Part shown: positions 27,601 to 49,708 of the stretch, piece by piece | Layout of the letters: every line of letters starts with the position of its first letter | Numbering within the stretch: the first letter of the stretch is position 1 | IMG/VR virus record: IMGVR_UViG_3300005937_000004 | Location: 1-64,000 of that record | Length of the DNA: 64,000 nucleotides | Reading direction: 5' to 3' (one strand) | Source: a virus | Taxonomy: Duplodnaviria > Caudoviricetes | Made by a program: the position numbers and the translations under genes | The notes under the pieces: model-generated | What the model was told of the DNA's origin: nothing | The model's input: the letters and a program-made list of their open reading frames with translations, nothing else | The model's database searches: none

Positions 27601-28239
27601 ATGTCCGTTCGTGCACTGACATGGGCGCTTGATCAGAAGACAGGCTCGCCAATCAGCAAGCTGGTTTTGCTCAAACTGGCTGACGCGGCCAACGATTCAG
27701 ATGGGCAATGCTGGCCATCGAGAGCAACAATAGCGGAAGAGTGTGAGCTGAGCTTTGAATCGGTAAAACGCCATATCAAACTGCTGGCCGATCAAGGATT
27801 GCTTGAGGTTTATCACAGGAAGCTCAGTTCCGTTCATTCATCTAACCTTTATCGGCTTCCCTTCAAGAGGGGGGTGGGGTCTGACAGACCCCAGGGTGGG
27901 GTCTCACAGACCCCAGGGGTAGGGTCTGACAGACCCCCTAACCATAATAAAGAACCAGAATTGAACCTATCCCCTATAGTCCCCGAACAGATCTACGATC
28001 TTTATCCTTTAAAAGCAGCAAAACCAAAGGCGATCGCCGCGATTAAGAAAGCCTTAGCAAAATATCCAGCCAAACTGCTATTGGAAAAGACCAGAGAATT
28101 TGCTGCTGCCAGAAATGGGGATTTGGAATTCTGTCCCATGCCAACCACCTGGTTTAATCAAGAGCGCTTTAATGACGAGCCCTCAACCTGGGTTCGCCAG
28201 AAACCAAAACAACCCAAGCCATATGATCCAATGATATGA
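27601..28239 (+). CDS. Phage replication initiator (HTH_36-like, lambda O analogue)
   Basis: KLVLLKLADAAND..GQCWPSRATIAEEC N-terminus; C-terminal PMPTTWFNQERFNDE; iterons inside the gene. Confidence 0.85.
   Translation: MSVRALTWALDQKTGSPISKLVLLKLADAANDSDGQCWPSRATIAEECELSFESVKRHIKLLADQGLLEVYHRKLSSVHSSNLYRLPFKRGVGSDRPQGGVSQTPGVGSDRPPNHNKEPELNLSPIVPEQIYDLYPLKAAKPKAIAAIKKALAKYPAKLLLEKTREFAAARNGDLEFCPMPTTWFNQERFNDEPSTWVRQKPKQPKPYDPMI
27876..27937. repeat. Replication-origin iterons: three 17-bp palindromes
   Basis: GGGGTCTGACAGACCCC (27876), GGGGTCTCACAGACCCC (27898), AGGGTCTGACAGACCCC (27921); 22-23 bp period. Confidence 0.8.
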
Positions 28240-43525: not shown

Positions 43526-43599
43526 GGGCAGGGGAAGGAATCGAACCTTCAAAGAGAATCCCGCAAAGACTCTTGCCTTAGCCATTCAGCCACCCTGCC
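43526..43599 (-). tRNA. Atypical tRNA (loop TT-TGC-GG, 6-bp anticodon stem, no G3:U70)
   Basis: GGCAGGG/CCCTGCC; D arm GCTGAATGGCTAAGGC; AGAGTC/GATTCT; T arm GAAGG-TTCGATT-CCTTC; no CCA. Confidence 0.7.
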
Positions 43600-44493: not shown

Positions 44494-44566
44494 AGGCGAG
44501 GAATCGGGTTCGAACCGAGCTCTACCGGAATTATCCGATTGTTTTGCCGTACTAAACTACCCCGCC
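44494..44566 (-). tRNA. tRNA-like element with a collapsed anticodon loop
   Basis: GGCGGGG/CCTCGCC; D arm GTTT/AAAC; ATCGGA-TAAT-TCCGGT; T loop TTCGAAC with an imperfect stem. Confidence 0.6.
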
Positions 44567-45134: not shown

Positions 45135-45976
45135 TTACCTTGCCTGCTGTACCGAGCTTGAACGTGCCGCGACCTGTCATATCTCGCCTGTTCCTTCCTT
45201 ATCCCGCCTGCCAGTCCTGAGCGAACGTTACCCCGCACTAACCATCTTACGGGACCCCGACTCGCCTGCCACGCCGTAGACCGACAGATCGCCCAAGACG
45301 ATCTCCACCCGGACGGGCCTGCCGTACCAGTTCTTTTCACCTACAGAGCGATCAGCTCCGCTTACGCCCTGCCTGCCATGCCAGTCCCCTGTTTGGTCAT
45401 TCTCCGCTATCTCAATACCGGACTGACCTGTACCCGCCTCTCCTGCATTTCCGGACCGAAGACTCCCGTGGCTACCGAGTCCCGCTTTACTGTCCGGACC
45501 TCACTGGAACACTCTACTGGTTCCGTACCGAGCCGCGCCTGCCCAACCAATCAAGGACTCTATAGATCCAACTCCAACGAACTGGACCCCATCAATCCCT
45601 GCCTGCTAAATCTATCCTTGCCATTCTAAATCAGCCCATGACGGCCCCAGGTCATAGCTACCCTCATCTTGCCTGCAGTTCCTATCTCTACCGATAGAAG
45701 ACTTTCCGAAGCCAATCCGTCGTTGCCAAACCCAACCTGCGCGATCGGGCCTGCCCCGCCATACACACATCCGACTGTACCGGGACGTATCTTGCCTGCC
45801 ATACCATTCCCCTGCTACTACGAAGCTTTTCACAACTATCTGGACCTGATCTTTCCATGCCTGCCGTGGCTTAGCTTGGTCATCCCCAATCTATCTAACC
45901 ATTCTCTTCTACGCCTGCCGTGCCTACTGATTCCTTGCTGCTGCCCTTCACAACCCGCTTAACCTTCCCCGCCTGC
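45135..45976 (-). repeat. VIPR-like guide array, sub-array C (about 13-14 units)
   Basis: GCCTGC (+ strand) at 45142, 45206, 45264, 45317, 45371, ~45441, 45537, 45601, 45671, 45749, 45794, 45859, 45913, 45971; 5-nt NN+triplet periodicity between them. Confidence 0.8.
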
Positions 45977-46000
45977 GGAATTGACATTGGAAATAGATGT

Positions 46001-46225
46001 GTGCCCGGTAAACTTGGAAGTCCATCTCCAATCGAGACGATCTGGCTCTTAGAACAGTTCGAAAAACTTCACAACGAGCATCTATTGATCTTGAGAAAGA
46101 TCGATGAAATCCAAACGACAATTAATCCAGCTTTAGAAAAGCAGGTGCGTTTGGCATTGACACTCGCCACAAAGGTTGACCAAAAAGTTCCAGACATAAA
46201 TGTCCCACCATCAACCAAACCGTAA
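46001..46225 (+). CDS. Small coiled-coil protein inside the array
   Basis: GTG 46001 is in frame with ORF 45920-46225 and 14 nt after TTGACA (45981). Confidence 0.6.
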   Translation: MPGKLGSPSPIETIWLLEQFEKLHNEHLLILRKIDEIQTTINPALEKQVRLALTLATKVDQKVPDINVPPSTKP

Positions 46226-46237
46226 GGATAAAAAACC

Positions 46238-46483
46238 ATGGCAATGACACAAGCAGAAGCTACCGCAGCGCTGACCAAAACCAACGAAACGCTGGTCAAG
46301 ATCAGCAATGAAACCGACGCGCTCCTTCGTGAGATCGAAGCTTTGAAGAAAGCCTTAGCCGACGCTGGCGGACCGGGTGGAACGATCACGCCAGAATTGG
46401 AAGCTGCCGTCAACGCAGTTGGAACAAGGGCGGAAGCCATTGACCAGCTGGTCGAGGATGTGCCTCAGCCAGAGGGCAAATAA
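46238..46483 (+). CDS. Small acidic Ala-rich coiled-coil protein
   Basis: 81 aa, natural composition, follows the previous ORF. Confidence 0.7.
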   Translation: MAMTQAEATAALTKTNETLVKISNETDALLREIEALKKALADAGGPGGTITPELEAAVNAVGTRAEAIDQLVEDVPQPEGK

Positions 46484-46547
46484 TTTTATTTGACTCGCTG
46501 TCGGAATAGGAATAGAAATTCTGGCAAGGTTAAGGCATTAAGATCGT

Positions 46548-46589
46548 GTGGGGCGGGCAGCCGTAAAAAGCGCCGCCCCGCCACTTTTT
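46548..46589 (+). terminator. Probable intrinsic terminator of the plus-strand cassette
   Basis: GC-rich imperfect hairpin GTGGGGCGG...CCGCCCCGCCAC followed by TTTTT. Confidence 0.55.
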
Positions 46590-47500
46590 AACGAACCGGG
46601 CTGGAGATACCTGGTCGCTCCAATTCAAACCCCGCCTGCGCTATCATTCCATACCCAAACGGGATCGATCATGCGATCCCAATCTTGCCTATTCCCGCCT
46701 GCCTGATCAAACCAAGTCAAGCCTGACCCGCTCCATAGCTCTACTGTCTGCGCCACCCGTCCCAAAACCGTCCATGCCTGCCGTGCCTTTAGGTGCCTGA
46801 GCGAATCAATACTTCAAGCCCTTGCCTCGCCTGCCGATCCTTGCCGACGCAAGATCATTCCTGGGCTCTACAGTTCATGACTTGTTTCTTCCCGCCTGCT
46901 GTTCCCAGCCCGATCCGGACTGAGCTCTCCACAGTAATCCCATACAATTCATACCTGCCGTGCTTATTCCCATTTCTCCCCAGTTGACTGCTCTATAGCA
47001 TTCCTCGCCTGCCGTTCCGAAGCTTCCTAGATCCACCATACCTCGATCCGTCCATAGACCGATCGAGCACACCAACCAGCTCCTCGCCTGCCCTGCCATC
47101 CCCGAGCTCAGTTCGACCTCATCGTGACAGTCCAGCTTCTCCGTGCCTTGACCCTCGCCCCCCAACGTTACGGACCGAACTCACCACGCCTGCGCATCCG
47201 AGCCAACACCGCTTGACCCAACTGGACCGGTTCCCAGCCCATTAGTCTAAGCCCAACCTCGCCTGCCCCACTGCGTTTTTCCGAACCAACCCGGACCTGA
47301 CCCAAAAGGATCAAATCCCTCTGCCCATACCATGCCTGCGATGCCCCATCTTGGTTCACCAAATCGGGGTGGAACAGTCCAGATAACGCCTGCCACAGAA
47401 TATCTATCCCGCGCAACCCAGGTCTCATCTATTCGTGATACCAGCTCTCCAGGCCTGCCTTGCCATGACGCAGCCCGGCTACTCAAGCTGCATCCAAAAT
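46590..47500 (-). repeat. VIPR-like guide array, sub-array B (about 13 units)
   Basis: GCCTGC at 46634, 46697, 46776, 46829, 46894, 46953 (variant), 47007, 47086, 47188, 47261, 47334, 47388, 47453. Confidence 0.8.
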
Positions 47501-47571
47501 TATTTCTGCTGCGATTTATGGGCATGGCAGCAATAAACAACCCACAAACCACGGAAAAACAGAGTGCCCCA

Positions 47572-47691
47572 ATGACAGGTGGTGGCAATCCTGTTGTTCA
47601 TCCTAATGATCCGAGTATTACTCCGGAGGAAAGAGAACGGCGGGAGCGTGAGGAACGTGAACGCCAGCGAAAACAGAAGCAGTCGAAATAA
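47572..47691 (+). CDS. Very small charged protein
   Basis: MTGGGNPVVHPNDPSITPEERERREREERERQRKQKQSK; start uncertain. Confidence 0.4.
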   Translation: MTGGGNPVVHPNDPSITPEERERREREERERQRKQKQSK

Positions 47692-47754
47692 CTGCATCGC
47701 TTGTGATGGTTCAAAGCCTCACAAGCGAACATATTGACACCTGGAGGATTTAGT

Positions 47755-48090
47755 ATGCCTACAGCACACAAGGAAACCAAACACACGGTCGCTGGTCCGG
47801 ACCCAGTTCCGGAATACCGACATGAAGCGGAAAGAAAAGCCCGTGAAGAAGCAGAAGAAGCAAGCGAAAAAGCCAAAAAAGAAGGTCCACCAAAGCCTCA
47901 AGCGCAAATCGACGCGGAGCTCGCAGAAAAAGGTGGCGACGTCCCAGAAGAAAGGCAAGGTGTCCCAACCGAAGCCAGACGCTGGACAGCCGTGGAACGA
48001 GAACGCGAGGAGCGCGCTGATTACGAAAAGTTTAAAGCGGAGTACGCTGCTGAGTGGAACAAGCGACACGCCGCCAAAGCTTCCAAGTGA
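47755..48090 (+). CDS. Small charged protein inside the array
   Basis: ATG 47755 with a GGAGG RBS, 15 nt after TTGACA (47734). Confidence 0.65.
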   Translation: MPTAHKETKHTVAGPDPVPEYRHEAERKAREEAEEASEKAKKEGPPKPQAQIDAELAEKGGDVPEERQGVPTEARRWTAVEREREERADYEKFKAEYAAEWNKRHAAKASK

Positions 48091-48100
48091 GGATGGGGGT

Positions 48101-48134
48101 GGAGAGCGTCCCTTTGTATAGAAGGACGCCCTCC
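48101..48134. terminator. Hairpin between the converging plus ORF and minus array A
   Basis: GGAGAGCGTCC-12 nt-GGACGCCCTCC, 10 of 11 bp paired. Confidence 0.45.
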
Positions 48135-48139
48135 GTTTA

Positions 48140-48343
48140 GCGTGTCATGGCATGCCGTTTCTTGCCCCGGTAGCCCCGGTGCAACTCGGCTCGCCTGCCG
48201 GACCTTGCCGACCCGTGGTGTACCATGGTGGACCAAGTTCCACCCCATCTATATCGACAAATCCATGCCTGCCCCGCTGTAGCAGGTCCCAGGGTACCGT
48301 GAACCGATAACCCTCATTTCGCCACGCCTGCCGAACTCTGCCG
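48140..48343 (-). repeat. VIPR-like guide array, sub-array A (3 units), directly after the partner gene stop
   Basis: GCCTGCC at 48193, 48267, 48326; spacings 74 and 59 (5n+4). Confidence 0.8.
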
Positions 48344-48811
48344 TTAGTTGTCGGTTAGCACTAATTTGAGTTCTTTCTGGAATTTCTTAGAAGCAGCAAA
48401 GACCTCGGATAATTCACCGAGATTTTTATATTTCTTTTCAAATTCCAAAAGTTCTGCCCTTGCATCAGCCAGGAGTTGCATGCGCAAAGATTTGTTGCTC
48501 ATCACGTCTACCATCGCCCTGTAGCCGCCACCGGCAGTGCGGTCTGGCCTTAAGGAGGTGAAAACGCGAATTGCTCTGCGGTCTCCATTCATCCGGACGT
48601 ATTTAACAACGCACCGAACGAGATGGCCTGCTTGGATTAAGCGGTATTCAGCTGCCGCCTCTGAATCATCCCACTCAAAGTATTTGTGTAGGATGCTACT
48701 CTTTGGTCGAGCTGCTTGGACCACTGCCTCCGCTCGGAGGATTCCCTCCGGGTCCTGATCCCTGATCCGGTTGAGTTCCCGGATCACCATCGGATTGCTT
48801 ATGTCGTACAT
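48344..48811 (-). CDS. Conserved partner protein of the RAMP-like gene
   Basis: LHKYFEWDDSEAAAEYRLIQA...ARAELLEFEKKY; start re-called at MYDISNP. Confidence 0.75.
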   Translation of the reverse strand: MYDISNPMVIRELNRIRDQDPEGILRAEAVVQAARPKSSILHKYFEWDDSEAAAEYRLIQAGHLVRCVVKYVRMNGDRRAIRVFTSLRPDRTAGGGYRAMVDVMSNKSLRMQLLADARAELLEFEKKYKNLGELSEVFAASKKFQKELKLVLTDN

Positions 48812-49019
48812 CGGCTTTTTTCCTCTCCCACATACCGACTTTCGCTCCCTTTTTCTGTGAGATCTCATTGGCTATATCACGAACATTGTCCATGATTCTG
48901 GCTGCAACACTGATCTCTTCAGGCGAAGGGTTCTTGCTATAGACCCTGGCCTCCACCCTGCCGGAGACCTGGCCTTCATCAGCCGGTTGTTCTCGGATTT
49001 GAATGAGGATGTCGATCAC
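48696..49019 (-). CDS. Possible small protein between the RAMP-like gene and its partner
   Basis: GTG overlaps the RAMP-gene stop (GTGA); the 3' end overlaps the partner gene. Confidence 0.4.
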   Translation of the reverse strand: MIDILIQIREQPADEGQVSGRVEARVYSKNPSPEEISVAARIMDNVRDIANEISQKKGAKVGMWERKKADVRHKQSDGDPGTQPDQGSGPGGNPPSGGSGPSSSTKE

Positions 49020-49708
49020 TTTTGCTCGACCTCGAATAGGCCCCAGCCTTGACCGGGACTGTTTCGAGAATCGGGTCGACCTTCGCAGATTCCGACCTGT
49101 AATCCAACTCGCATCAACAGGTTGGTGACGTCTTTCAACTGGAACTGATCTGCGTCCCAGCGGATCTTGACGTTCGCTTCCCATGGCATGTACTTGGCTC
49201 GAATAGCCACATACGGTTGCCCTGTTTCAACCCGAGCGATCGACTTGAGAAGTTCTGGTTTCCCATGAAGCCGGATCAATGGGATGGTCGGTTCTGTCCC
49301 GTCCCAGCCGTCCTGCACGACGAAGATGGAAAGTTTGGCTAACGTCATCTTGAAGTTGACCAACCTGCAGGCCGAAATGCAGGCATTGCGAATAGAGCCA
49401 GCATGAAATCCATCCCAACCCTGCGGTGAAATGTAACGAGCCTGTATGAAAGACTCGTTAATGTCCTGCGGTTCTCGCTTCTTCTTTGAAGACGCCGATT
49501 TTCCTTCCATCTGCTTGGCTAACATTTCGTCAGCCACCTTTTTGCTGAACCGGTGTATTACCAGAGGTACACCAGATAGACCGCTGATCTTGAATACCGC
49601 CGTCTGGAAGTTTGGCGGTGTGATAGTGACCGTCATTCGACGTTCACCGTCCAGTGACGGCTTTTTAGTCATCCGTCGAGACTTTGCTGTTAGGGTTGAT
49701 GTTGCCAT
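49016..49708 (-). CDS. RAMP/Cas7-like protein (Vipr-like effector)
   Basis: FKISGLSGVPLVIHRF, GWDGFHAGSIRNACISAC and a C-terminal Gly-rich loop VGLQVGICEGRP...GQGWGLFEV; adjacent pentamer arrays; no cas1/cas2 or CRISPR repeats. Confidence 0.75.
   Translation of the reverse strand: MATSTLTAKSRRMTKKPSLDGERRMTVTITPPNFQTAVFKISGLSGVPLVIHRFSKKVADEMLAKQMEGKSASSKKKREPQDINESFIQARYISPQGWDGFHAGSIRNACISACRLVNFKMTLAKLSIFVVQDGWDGTEPTIPLIRLHGKPELLKSIARVETGQPYVAIRAKYMPWEANVKIRWDADQFQLKDVTNLLMRVGLQVGICEGRPDSRNSPGQGWGLFEVEQK

What the first reader, a model, noticed from the sequence alone, without database searches (positions are those of the whole stretch)
45135..48343. The constant triplet of the guide code is highly degenerate while a 7-nt GGCAGGC delimiter is nearly invariant
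Seen in sequence: triplets are not uniform GGY. Unit 48267-48326 uses ggc, aat, ggg, atc, ttc, ggt, cct, gac, gct, agc. Unit 47007-47086 uses gga, tgg, ggt, gct, atc, tct, gga, gat, agg, tgg, gat, agg, gct, gga. Phase is kept, but the triplet is only G-biased. Some units carry a 1-nt slip (e.g. 45206-45264, 58 nt). Inference: this may be a divergent subtype in which register is set by the delimiter rather than by each triplet. Degeneracy would also reduce deletion by recombination, and slipped units may be decaying guides.
Basis: partly seen in the sequence, partly recalled or inferred. Interest (0 to 1): 0.7.

Follow-up and report, generated by a model that had tools for sequence, protein, structure and literature searches.

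The report
Relaxed-scaffold phage VIPR guide array
The five-base rhythm and the GGCAGGC punctuation are real and mark the guide-RNA arrays of a phage VIPR system (a CRISPR-related DNA silencer first described in 2026). Its constant triplet is unusually loose, yet at least two guides still spell the catalytic motifs of DNA methyltransferase genes.

Summary
Observation confirmed. On the minus strand of 45145-48331 there are 28 GCAGGC junctions, 20 of them the full GGCAGGC. They cut three blocks into about 26 units of 9-18 pentamers.

The rhythm is phased on G. Position 1 is G in 58-71% of pentamers, position 2 in 44-47%, and position 3 is nearly free. Only 15-18% of pentamers are GGY. That compares with 38% in pooled relatives, 88% in the cleanest relative, and about 65% in phage SUSP1.

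This is a VIPR system with the "staggered" array architecture of bioRxiv 10.64898/2026.04.26.720920. A RAMP-fold Vipr gene (49016-49708, minus) and a conserved partner gene sit upstream. The "7-nt delimiter" is better read as a truncated repeat, GGCA (a 4-nt step), followed by the GGC of the next unit.

New here: two degenerate guides decode by the published read-two-skip-one rule, in the register of their 3' GGCA.
- Guide 47336-47264 spells AGFPCQPFS(K/N)AG, motif IV of C5 DNA methyltransferases, and its seed has more than 117 exact IMG/VR hits.
- Guide 48269-48196 spells GFDVVIGNPPY, motif IV of Eco57I/N6 methylases.

15 of their 23 matched pentamers are not GGY, so the looseness is tolerated and is not simple decay. 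No targets were found for the other guides.

The scan has found similar staggered or relaxed VIPR arrays on other DNA. Verdict: a new member of a known kind.

The parts
48145..48343 (-). vrRNA array block 3, the first block after the partner gene's stop. It has 3 GCAGGC junctions and 2 full units.
46634..47460 (-). vrRNA array block 2, with 12 GCAGGC junctions plus GCAGGT and GCAGGG variants.
45142..45976 (-). vrRNA array block 1, with 13 GCAGGC junctions plus a GCAGGA variant.
47264..47336 (-). Guide A, 73 nt (5n+3). Its 12 pentamers nearest the 3' end spell AGFPCQPFS(K/N)AG, motif IV of C5 cytosine DNA methyltransferases. Only 3 of those 12 triplets are GGY.
48196..48269 (-). Guide B, 74 nt (5n+4). 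Read antisense, its 11 pentamers nearest the 3' end spell GFDVVIGNPPY, motif IV of Eco57I/N6-adenine methylases. 5 of those 11 triplets are GGY.
47191..47263 (-). Guide C, 73 nt. In the 5' phase its core spells GGPPCQG, the other common form of C5 methyltransferase motif IV. This reading is suggestive only.
49016..49708 (-). vipr gene, 230 aa. RAMP/Cas7-like fold, remote homologue of the SUSP1 Vipr.
48344..48868 (-). Conserved partner gene (vap-like), 174 aa, with a weak winged-helix-like fold. It is not homologous to SUSP1 vap1.
45998..46483 (+). Two small genes on the opposite strand between array blocks 1 and 2. A hairpin read by eye follows at about 46548-46590; the terminator scan did not list it.
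47518..48090 (+). Two small genes on the opposite strand between array blocks 2 and 3. A hairpin read by eye follows at about 48095-48140; the terminator scan did not list it.

Best explanation
The three G-phased blocks are the guide-RNA (vrRNA) arrays of a phage-borne VIPR system of the 'staggered' type.

Shown in sequence:
- The arrays lie downstream of vipr and its partner gene, on the same strand.
- Each unit is a run of 9-18 pentamers that ends in a truncated repeat, (G)GCA. The next unit starts at once with GGC, so the register drops by one base at every junction.
- The two variable bases of each pentamer, read with one skipped base between them, spell target codons.

Inferred by analogy with the SUSP1 structures:
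- One Vipr protomer binds one pentamer.
- The filament is phased from the canonical repeats next to the 3' junction and extends 3'-to-5' by protomer-protomer contacts. Internal triplets therefore need only a weak G bias.
- The 4-nt step stops the filament and marks the boundary of the processed guide.

What this phage's guides aim at. At least two guides are aimed at the catalytic motifs of DNA methyltransferase genes: C5 motif IV and N6 motif IV of the Eco57I / type IIG class. The phage itself lacks the two methyltransferase families searched. The likely use is transcriptional silencing of such genes in rival phages or other elements, and possibly in the host (inferred).
For: Protein.
- The fold search returns only Cas7/Csm3/Cmr4 RAMPs.
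- hhalign to the SUSP1 Vipr covers the full length (E 1e-4). It pairs the published RNA-contact residues H17, R138, D177 and R179 with residues H52, R170, E209 and R211, which are invariant in the 36 sequences aligned.
- The family is large: more than 4,400 homologues, 454 IMG/VR loci, and genomes of many phyla.
- The context is a phage: terminase genes lie next to the locus and the genome is complete with direct terminal repeats.

Array.
- GGCAGG clusters lie on the vipr strand in nearly all relatives.
- Clean relatives show units of the form (GGYNN)n + GGCA, with length 5n+4.
- Junction logos are the same in the window and in 465 junctions from relatives.
- The periodicity is far above shuffles.

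Code and register.
- Guide A matches L008's PF00145 methylase gene at 22 of 26 bases, in frame, with the skipped base at the wobble position.
- Guide A's 18-base seed has more than 117 exact IMG/VR hits, all translating xAGFPCQPFSxAG; 16 of them match 25 of 26. Five other 18-22-base guide patterns gave 0 hits in IMG/VR.
- An independent guide of relative L001 hits the same site at 16 of 16.
- Guide B has an exact 20-of-20 hit and a 1-mismatch hit in Eco57I/N6_Mtase genes of one Paludibacter genome, with 0 hits for the reversed-pattern control.
- In guide A, 13 of 36 triplet positions depart from GGY, against 0 of 24 NN positions departing from the target (Fisher p = 7.7e-4).
- Guide A decodes only when anchored at its 3' end.
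- In units that are not 5n+4, phase holds for about 7 pentamers from the 3' junction but only 2-3 from the 5' junction.
- In SUSP1, protomers resolve 3'-to-5' from the 3' cap.
- The phage has no PF00145 or PF02384 gene of its own.
Against:
- 23 of 26 guides have no target. The local databases of 2.5-5.6 Mb gave nothing above shuffled controls, and seven guide patterns (five in IMG/VR, two in the metagenome collection) gave nothing.
- 9 of 26 units lack significant periodicity and may be dead.
- In SUSP1, perturbing GGY abolished silencing, so tolerance of non-GGY triplets here is inferred from sequence only.
- The hhalign probability is only 57%.
- W178, which stacks on G2 in SUSP1, aligns with an invariant Gly here.
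- The figure that defines 'staggered' arrays could not be seen; only its legend was available.
Confidence: 0.85

Rival explanations
1. Simple decay. The arrays descend from canonical GGYNN arrays and are eroding. Only the few GGY-rich units still work, and the loose triplets and off-length units are damage.
For: - 9 of 26 units have no significant 5-nt signal, and 15 of 26 are not 5n+4.
- Clean relatives with the same Vipr motifs exist.
- No targets were found for 23 guides.
- The two units of about 96-97 nt may hide decayed junctions.
Against: - The junction core is intact at every unit boundary that was called, while internal G2 is only about 45% G.
- The two decoded guides are themselves degenerate (8 of 23 triplets GGY) yet have 11-12 consecutive perfect NN pairs. 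Departures fall on triplets and not on NN (p = 7.7e-4).
- One decoded guide is a 'slipped' unit.
- The closest long relative, L001, is equally loose, with unrelated guides.
- vipr keeps all the residues that are invariant in the 36-sequence family alignment.
Confidence: 0.1
2. Parsing artefact. The true register contains many more GGY triplets, but unrecognised 1-nt slips blur a strict 5-nt parse.
For: Allowing 4- and 6-nt blocks raises G1 from 0.58 to 0.71. Many units are 5n+3 or 5n.
Against: Even the slip-tolerant parse gives only 18% GGY. In guides A and B the register is fixed independently by the target match, and in that register 15 of 23 triplets are not GGY.
Confidence: 0.04
3. Not a guide array. 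It would instead be a periodic protein-binding or decoy RNA/DNA, for example an RNA that wraps a ring-shaped protein as in TRAP, unrelated to DNA targeting.
For: A 5-nt triplet-plus-spacer rhythm with 9-18 repeats per unit resembles TRAP sites (own knowledge). No processing data are available.
Against: - A RAMP protein with Vipr contact residues sits adjacent on the same strand.
- The variable dinucleotides spell conserved coding motifs with the skip at the wobble position.
- Guides are hypervariable between relatives.
Confidence: 0.01

Closest known systems
VIPR systems with 'staggered' vrRNA arrays (bioRxiv 10.64898/2026.04.26.720920, fig. S18 legend and methods)
   Same: - A single RAMP-fold Vipr gene plus one accessory gene in a phage.
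- Pentanucleotide repeats.
- Units abut, and the end of one marks the start of the next with a 1-nt overlap (here GGCA|GGC, a 4-nt step).
- Read-two-skip-one code, with the skip at the codon wobble position.
- The paper itself notes 'internal degeneracy' and alternative NNNGG, YNNNG and NNNNG repeats.
   Different: - Only 15-18% of pentamers are GGY.
- G1, not G2 or Y3, is the best-kept position.
- The arrays are large (about 26 guides) and split into three blocks by small genes on the opposite strand.
- The decoded targets are DNA methyltransferase catalytic motifs, a target class not mentioned in the main text of the two preprints searched for it.
- That paper states sRNA-seq confirmation only for the ribozyme and single-guide architectures, not for staggered arrays.
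Type II VIPR of Escherichia phage SUSP1 (same preprints; structures in 10.64898/2026.04.26.720927)
   Same: - Remote homology of Vipr, with H17, R138, D177 and R179 conserved as H52, R170, E209 and R211.
- 9-16 pentamers per guide.
- 1-nt skip code.
- The 3' end is the stable end of the filament.
   Different: - SUSP1 guides have G2 and Y3 at 0.93 and a tail of about 40 nt with a pseudoknot. Here there is no tail, only a 4-nt junction.
- W178, which stacks on G2 in SUSP1, aligns with an invariant Gly, and 8 residues are inserted after the G-loop.
- The partner gene is unrelated to vap1 (hhalign probability 0.4%).
Class 1 CRISPR crRNA on a Cas7 backbone (type I Cascade, type III Csm/Cmr)
   Same: RAMP-fold protomers polymerise along a guide RNA and flip out bases at a fixed period. 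Guides are cut from a multi-unit array.
   Different: - The period is 6 nt with 5 paired bases, against 5 nt with 2 paired bases here.
- CRISPR has a separate repeat hairpin and Cas6 processing, and Cas1-Cas2 acquisition.
- There are no CRISPR repeats or other cas genes here.

Membership tests
VIPR system | Vipr protein with a RAMP (RRM core, G-loop, thumb) fold | tested here: met
   The AlphaFold model has pLDDT 78. All top PDB matches are Cas7-family RAMPs: Cmr4, Csm3, Cas7, with best E 6.9e-4 and TM 0.35-0.45. hhalign to the SUSP1 Vipr gives E 1e-4 over 168 columns.
VIPR system | Residues that hold the GGY triplet in SUSP1 (H17, R138, D177, W178, R179) | tested here: inconclusive
   H52, R170, E209 and R211 align with H17, R138, D177 and R179 and are invariant in the 36 sequences aligned. 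W178 aligns with an invariant G210, and an 8-residue insert carrying an invariant W222 follows. The alignment probability is only 57%.
VIPR system | vrRNAs of about 9-16 tandem pentanucleotide repeats next to vipr, on its strand | tested here: met
   26 units of 9-18 pentamers lie downstream of vipr on the minus strand. 5-nt G periodicity is significant in 17 of 26 units. Relatives have the same layout.
VIPR system | Conserved GGY scaffold triplet in each repeat | tested here: not met
   GGY makes up 15-18% of pentamers, with G1 0.58-0.71, G2 0.44-0.47 and Y3 0.52-0.62. SUSP1 has 65% GGY. The source paper allows 'a related consensus' (NNNGG, YNNNG, NNNNG), so this lowers the fit to type II, not to VIPR as a whole.
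VIPR system | Noncontiguous code: the NN of each repeat matches the target with one skipped base, usually the codon wobble | tested here: met
   Guide A's seed has more than 117 exact IMG/VR hits, all in frame on AGFPCQPFS. Guide B has a 20-of-20 hit in frame on FDVVIGNPPY in Eco57I/N6 methylase genes. Only 2 of 26 guides decode firmly.
VIPR system | Accessory (vap) gene beside vipr | tested here: inconclusive
   The 174-aa gene has tblastn relatives in 115 of 133 related loci. It shows no homology to SUSP1 vap1. Its fold gives only weak winged-helix-like matches, E about 1. Comparison with vap2-6 was not possible.
VIPR system | vrRNAs are expressed, processed and bound by Vipr; the RNP binds dsDNA and represses transcription | not testable with these tools
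Type II VIPR (SUSP1-like) | Invariant 3' tail of about 40 nt with a pseudoknot after the repeats; vap1 | tested here: not met
   Units abut directly and the only constant element is (G)GCA|GGC. The partner gene is unrelated to vap1.
Staggered VIPR array | Adjacent vrRNAs share a 1-nt overlap, so the end of one unit is the start of the next | tested here: met
   The junction is a 4-nt step between two GG positions. Clean relatives have units of (GGYNN)n + GGCA with length 5n+4. In the window, 11 of 26 units are 5n+4. Only the legend of fig. S18 could be read.

The most novel reading that the evidence does not exclude
In this Vipr clade the scaffold triplet would be almost free. The filament would be phased by the 3' GGCA junction and by protomer-protomer contacts alone, so that natural guides with two-thirds non-GGY triplets are fully active. 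The phage would use them to silence the catalytic-motif regions of DNA methyltransferase genes, including type IIG / Eco57I-class restriction-modification enzymes of the host. That would make VIPR an anti-defence or 'epigenetic warfare' weapon as well as an anti-satellite one.
Probability: 0.25. Interest if true: 0.75.

Novelty: new member of a known kind. Interest (0 to 1): 0.5.

Why it matters
VIPR was described only in 2026, and its published rules and array callers treat GGY as an invariant scaffold. This locus shows a natural array in which most triplets are not GGY, yet the guides still keep perfect two-base codes in phase with the junction.

If that holds at the bench, three things follow:
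- It relaxes the design rules for VIPR guides.
- It explains why GGY-based callers would miss arrays like this one.
- It points to the junction and the 3' repeats as the element that sets the register.

The decoded targets also add a possible new use for VIPR. They are the PCQ motif of C5 methyltransferases and the NPPY motif of Eco57I-class methylases, genes the phage itself lacks. The guides aim at the most conserved codons of DNA-modification genes, which a rival cannot change without losing the enzyme.

Tried and rejected
- Rfam gathering scan: only a tRNA, nothing in the arrays. Tandem Repeats Finder misses the arrays. Global Fourier power at period 5 is weak because the phase resets at each junction.
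- Target search, 5'-anchored, all 26 guides, local 2.5 Mb database: nothing above shuffles. The same for 475 guides of relatives: no enrichment overall.
- Alternative codes (skip 0, 2 or 3; N3N4N5 contiguous; shifted NN positions): nothing.
- Guide patterns of 18-22 specified bases: six IMG/VR scans (searches used guide 45208-45145 and an 11-NN stretch of guide B) and two metagenome scans gave 0 hits.
- Guide 45208-45145 in 401 Bacteroidota genomes at up to 3 mismatches: 2 hits against 1 control, which is noise.
- Guide C's 12-NN pattern in the same genomes: 0 hits. In the local database its top hits are real GGPPCQ sites but do not score above shuffles.
- Guide B in the local database: not above shuffles. 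It was resolved only by the whole-genome pattern search.
- GC content as the cause of degeneracy: no correlation across 48 loci.
- Vipr RNA-contact motifs as the cause: identical in loci with clean and with loose arrays.
- Conservation of guides between the window and its closest relatives: none; only the interleaved genes align.
- Sigma-70 promoter scan: 0 sites.
- Pfam and PDB sequence searches of Vipr and the partner gene: nothing significant.
- The paper's supplements are not held, so the VIPR type number (I-VII) could not be assigned.
Full report
**What is in the sequence.**
On the + strand, GCCTGCC occurs 28 times in the window against 8.7 expected. 20 of these lie in 45206-48332, all in one orientation. 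The 6-mer core, GCAGGC on the minus strand, occurs 28 times between 45147 and 48331, and only 21 times on that strand in the remaining 75 kb of the phage genome. The spacings are 45-113 nt.

The junctions form three blocks: 45142-45976, 46634-47460 and 48193-48331. The blocks are separated by small + strand genes with clear codon periodicity.

Anchoring all copies on the junction shows C (G on the minus strand) at every fifth position on both sides. It also shows that the junction itself is a 4-nt step. On the minus strand the text reads ...GGNNN GGNNN (G)GCA GGCNN GGNNN...

**How degenerate is the triplet.**
| Parse or comparison | G1 | G2 | Position 3 | GGY |
|---|---|---|---|---|
| Window, strict 5-nt parse of the 26 units | 0.58 | 0.44 | close to uniform | - |
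| Window, parse allowing 4- and 6-nt blocks | 0.71 | 0.47 | Y 0.62 | 18% (GG 34%) |
| Window, shuffled units | 0.32-0.37 | - | - | 4-7% |
| 442 pooled units from relatives | - | - | - | 38% |
| Four SUSP1 vrRNAs, parsed the same way | 0.78 | 0.93 | Y 0.93 | 65% |

- GGA is the commonest triplet. The classes under the 3'-anchored parse are GGY 15%, GGR 16%, GAN 17%, G[CT]N 15%, HGN 14% and HHN 23%.
- The looseness is therefore real. The order of conservation is also inverted relative to type II: here G1 is kept best.
- The first two or three pentamers and the last one or two of each unit are the most canonical. The middle is loose.
- 17 of 26 units have significant 5-nt periodicity on their own and 9 do not. 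11 of 26 have length 5n+4.

**What it is.**
A note from this scan named VIPR. The source papers were then found and read.

VIPR systems pair one small RAMP protein (Vipr) with vrRNAs made of GGY/NN pentamers. The NN bases pair with DNA, and one target base is skipped per repeat.

The paper lists seven types. It mentions alternative consensus repeats (NNNGG, YNNNG, NNNNG) and 'frequently observed internal degeneracy'. It also describes 'staggered arrays', in which neighbouring vrRNAs overlap by 1 nt.

The evidence that this locus is one of these:
- The 230-aa product of 49016-49708 (minus strand) has no Pfam family. It folds as a RAMP: every top PDB match is Cmr4, Csm3 or Cas7.
- Its family profile aligns over its full length with the SUSP1 Vipr at E 1e-4. 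The published RNA-contact residues H17, R138, D177 and R179 pair with H52, R170, E209 and R211, which are invariant in the 36 sequences aligned. W178, which stacks on G2, pairs with an invariant Gly.
- The next gene (48344-48868) has relatives in 115 of 133 related loci. It is unrelated to SUSP1 vap1, and its fold is at best weakly winged-helix-like.
- Terminase genes flank the locus. The genome is a complete 78,949-bp virus with terminal repeats.

**The clade and the meaning of the delimiter.**
The protein family is large. In nearly all of the 80 viral loci fetched, GGCAGG clusters lie on the vipr strand.

Clean members such as L008, L036 and L050 show the grammar plainly. A unit is (GGYNN)n followed by GGCA, its length is 5n+4, and the next unit starts at once. 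The 'GGCAGGC delimiter' is therefore a repeat that lacks one variable base, plus the first triplet of the next guide. This fits the '1-nt overlap' wording of fig. S18.

Across 48 loci, GGY content runs from 88% down to 13%. The window, at 15%, is near the loose end. This does not track GC content, and the Vipr RNA-contact motifs are the same in clean and loose loci.

The closest long relative, L001 (77% Vipr identity), is equally loose and has the same interleaved opposite-strand genes. None of its guides resembles those of the window.

**Are the loose guides real guides?**
Searches with the 5'-anchored parse found nothing, and neither did eight collection scans. Parsing backwards from the 3' GGCA gave a hit.

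Guide A (47336-47264):
- It is a 73-nt 'slipped' unit. It matches L008 at 22 of 26 NN bases, with 9 consecutive perfect pairs and the skipped base on the third codon position.
- The ORF it hits is a C5 cytosine DNA methylase (PF00145, E 1e-34). The site is motif IV, AGFPCQPFS.
- A guide of L001 hits the same site at 16 of 16.
All translate xAGFPCQPFSxAG, and 16 contigs match 25 of 26 bases of the whole guide.
- The 12 matched pentamers carry the triplets TGG AGA GAT GAT TTT GGT GGT GGG GGT GGA AAC AGT.
- 13 of 36 triplet positions depart from GGY, while 0 of 24 NN positions depart from the target (p = 7.7e-4).
- The unit's 'slip' is a second GGCA at its 5' end.

Guide B (48269-48196):
- Decoding all guides as NNx codons showed that guide B, read antisense, spells G-F-D-V-V-I-G-N-P-P-Y-R.
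- A pattern search of five genomes that carry Vipr relatives found a 20-of-20 match and a 1-mismatch match in one Paludibacter genome. The reversed-pattern control found none.
- Both sites are the NPPY motif of Eco57I/N6_Mtase genes. One of them is a protein of at least 986 aa with MmeI_Mtase and TaqI_C domains.
- Its 11 matched pentamers carry ATA GAT GGT AAC GGT ACC GGT ACC GGG GGC GGT.

Both guides:
- The mismatches sit at the 5' end.
- The phage itself has no PF00145 or PF02384 gene.

Guide C (47263-47191) is a third guide, next to guide A. Its core spells GGPPCQG, but this is not statistically secured.

**Mechanism.**
Shown:
- The grammar.
- The code.
- The 3'-anchored register in two guides.
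- The better phase-keeping from the 3' junction in units of irregular length.

Inferred from the SUSP1 structures, where one protomer binds each repeat and protomers resolve 3'-to-5' from the 3' cap:
- The canonical repeats next to the junction would nucleate and phase the filament.
- Protomer-protomer contacts would carry the 5-nt ruler across loose triplets.
- The 4-nt step would break the filament and define the guide's ends.

How the RNA is cut is unknown.

**Verdict.**
- The reading that the junction, not each triplet, sets the register is supported.
- The readings 'divergent new subtype' and 'slipped means decaying' are not supported.
- This is a new member of a known, very recently described kind. 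Other follow-ups in this scan reached the same classification for similar arrays on other DNA.
- What it adds is sequence-level evidence that heavily non-GGY guides are maintained, and a target class (DNA methyltransferase catalytic motifs) that the main text of the two preprints searched for it does not mention.

Noticed in passing
45998-46483 and 47518-48090 (+ strand): Four small genes of unknown function (75, 81, 57 and 111 aa) lie on the strand opposite to the arrays and split them into three blocks. Each pair is followed by a hairpin read by eye in the sequence (about 46548-46590 and 48095-48140); the terminator scan did not list them. Two of the genes have homologues in the same position in relative L001, about 68% identical in DNA. 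Transcription of these genes would run antisense to the guides.
   Followed up: partly
L001:14178-14222 against L008:19676: A guide of the related phage L001 spells GFPCQPFS exactly (16 of 16). This is the same C5 methyltransferase motif that guide A of the window targets, although the two guides are not homologous in sequence.
   Followed up: partly
L035:8711-8770 against L046:10180: A guide of relative L035 matches the vipr gene of relative L046 at 20 of 22 bases, in frame, with the skip at the wobble position. This may be an anti-VIPR guide. On its own it is of borderline significance.
   Followed up: no
G005 (Paludibacter sp. MAG): L085, L253, L254: One genome holds a Vipr relative (63% identity), the exact 20-of-20 target of guide B, and a second target with 1 mismatch. 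This may hint at the host range of the clade, or it may be coincidence, since the motif is widespread.
   Followed up: no
43526-43599 and 44494-44566 (minus strand): A tRNA-Ala(TGC) gene, and a second tRNA-like element to which ARAGORN could not assign an anticodon.
   Followed up: no
27871-27937: A 22-nt tandem repeat of 3 copies (GGGGTGGGGTCTGACAGACCCCA) with internal dyad symmetry.
   Followed up: no
45539-45444 and 47190-47094 (minus strand): Two units of 96-97 nt (18 pentamers), longer than the published 9-16 range. The first has no 5-nt periodicity at all (p = 0.98). They may contain decayed junctions.
   Followed up: partly
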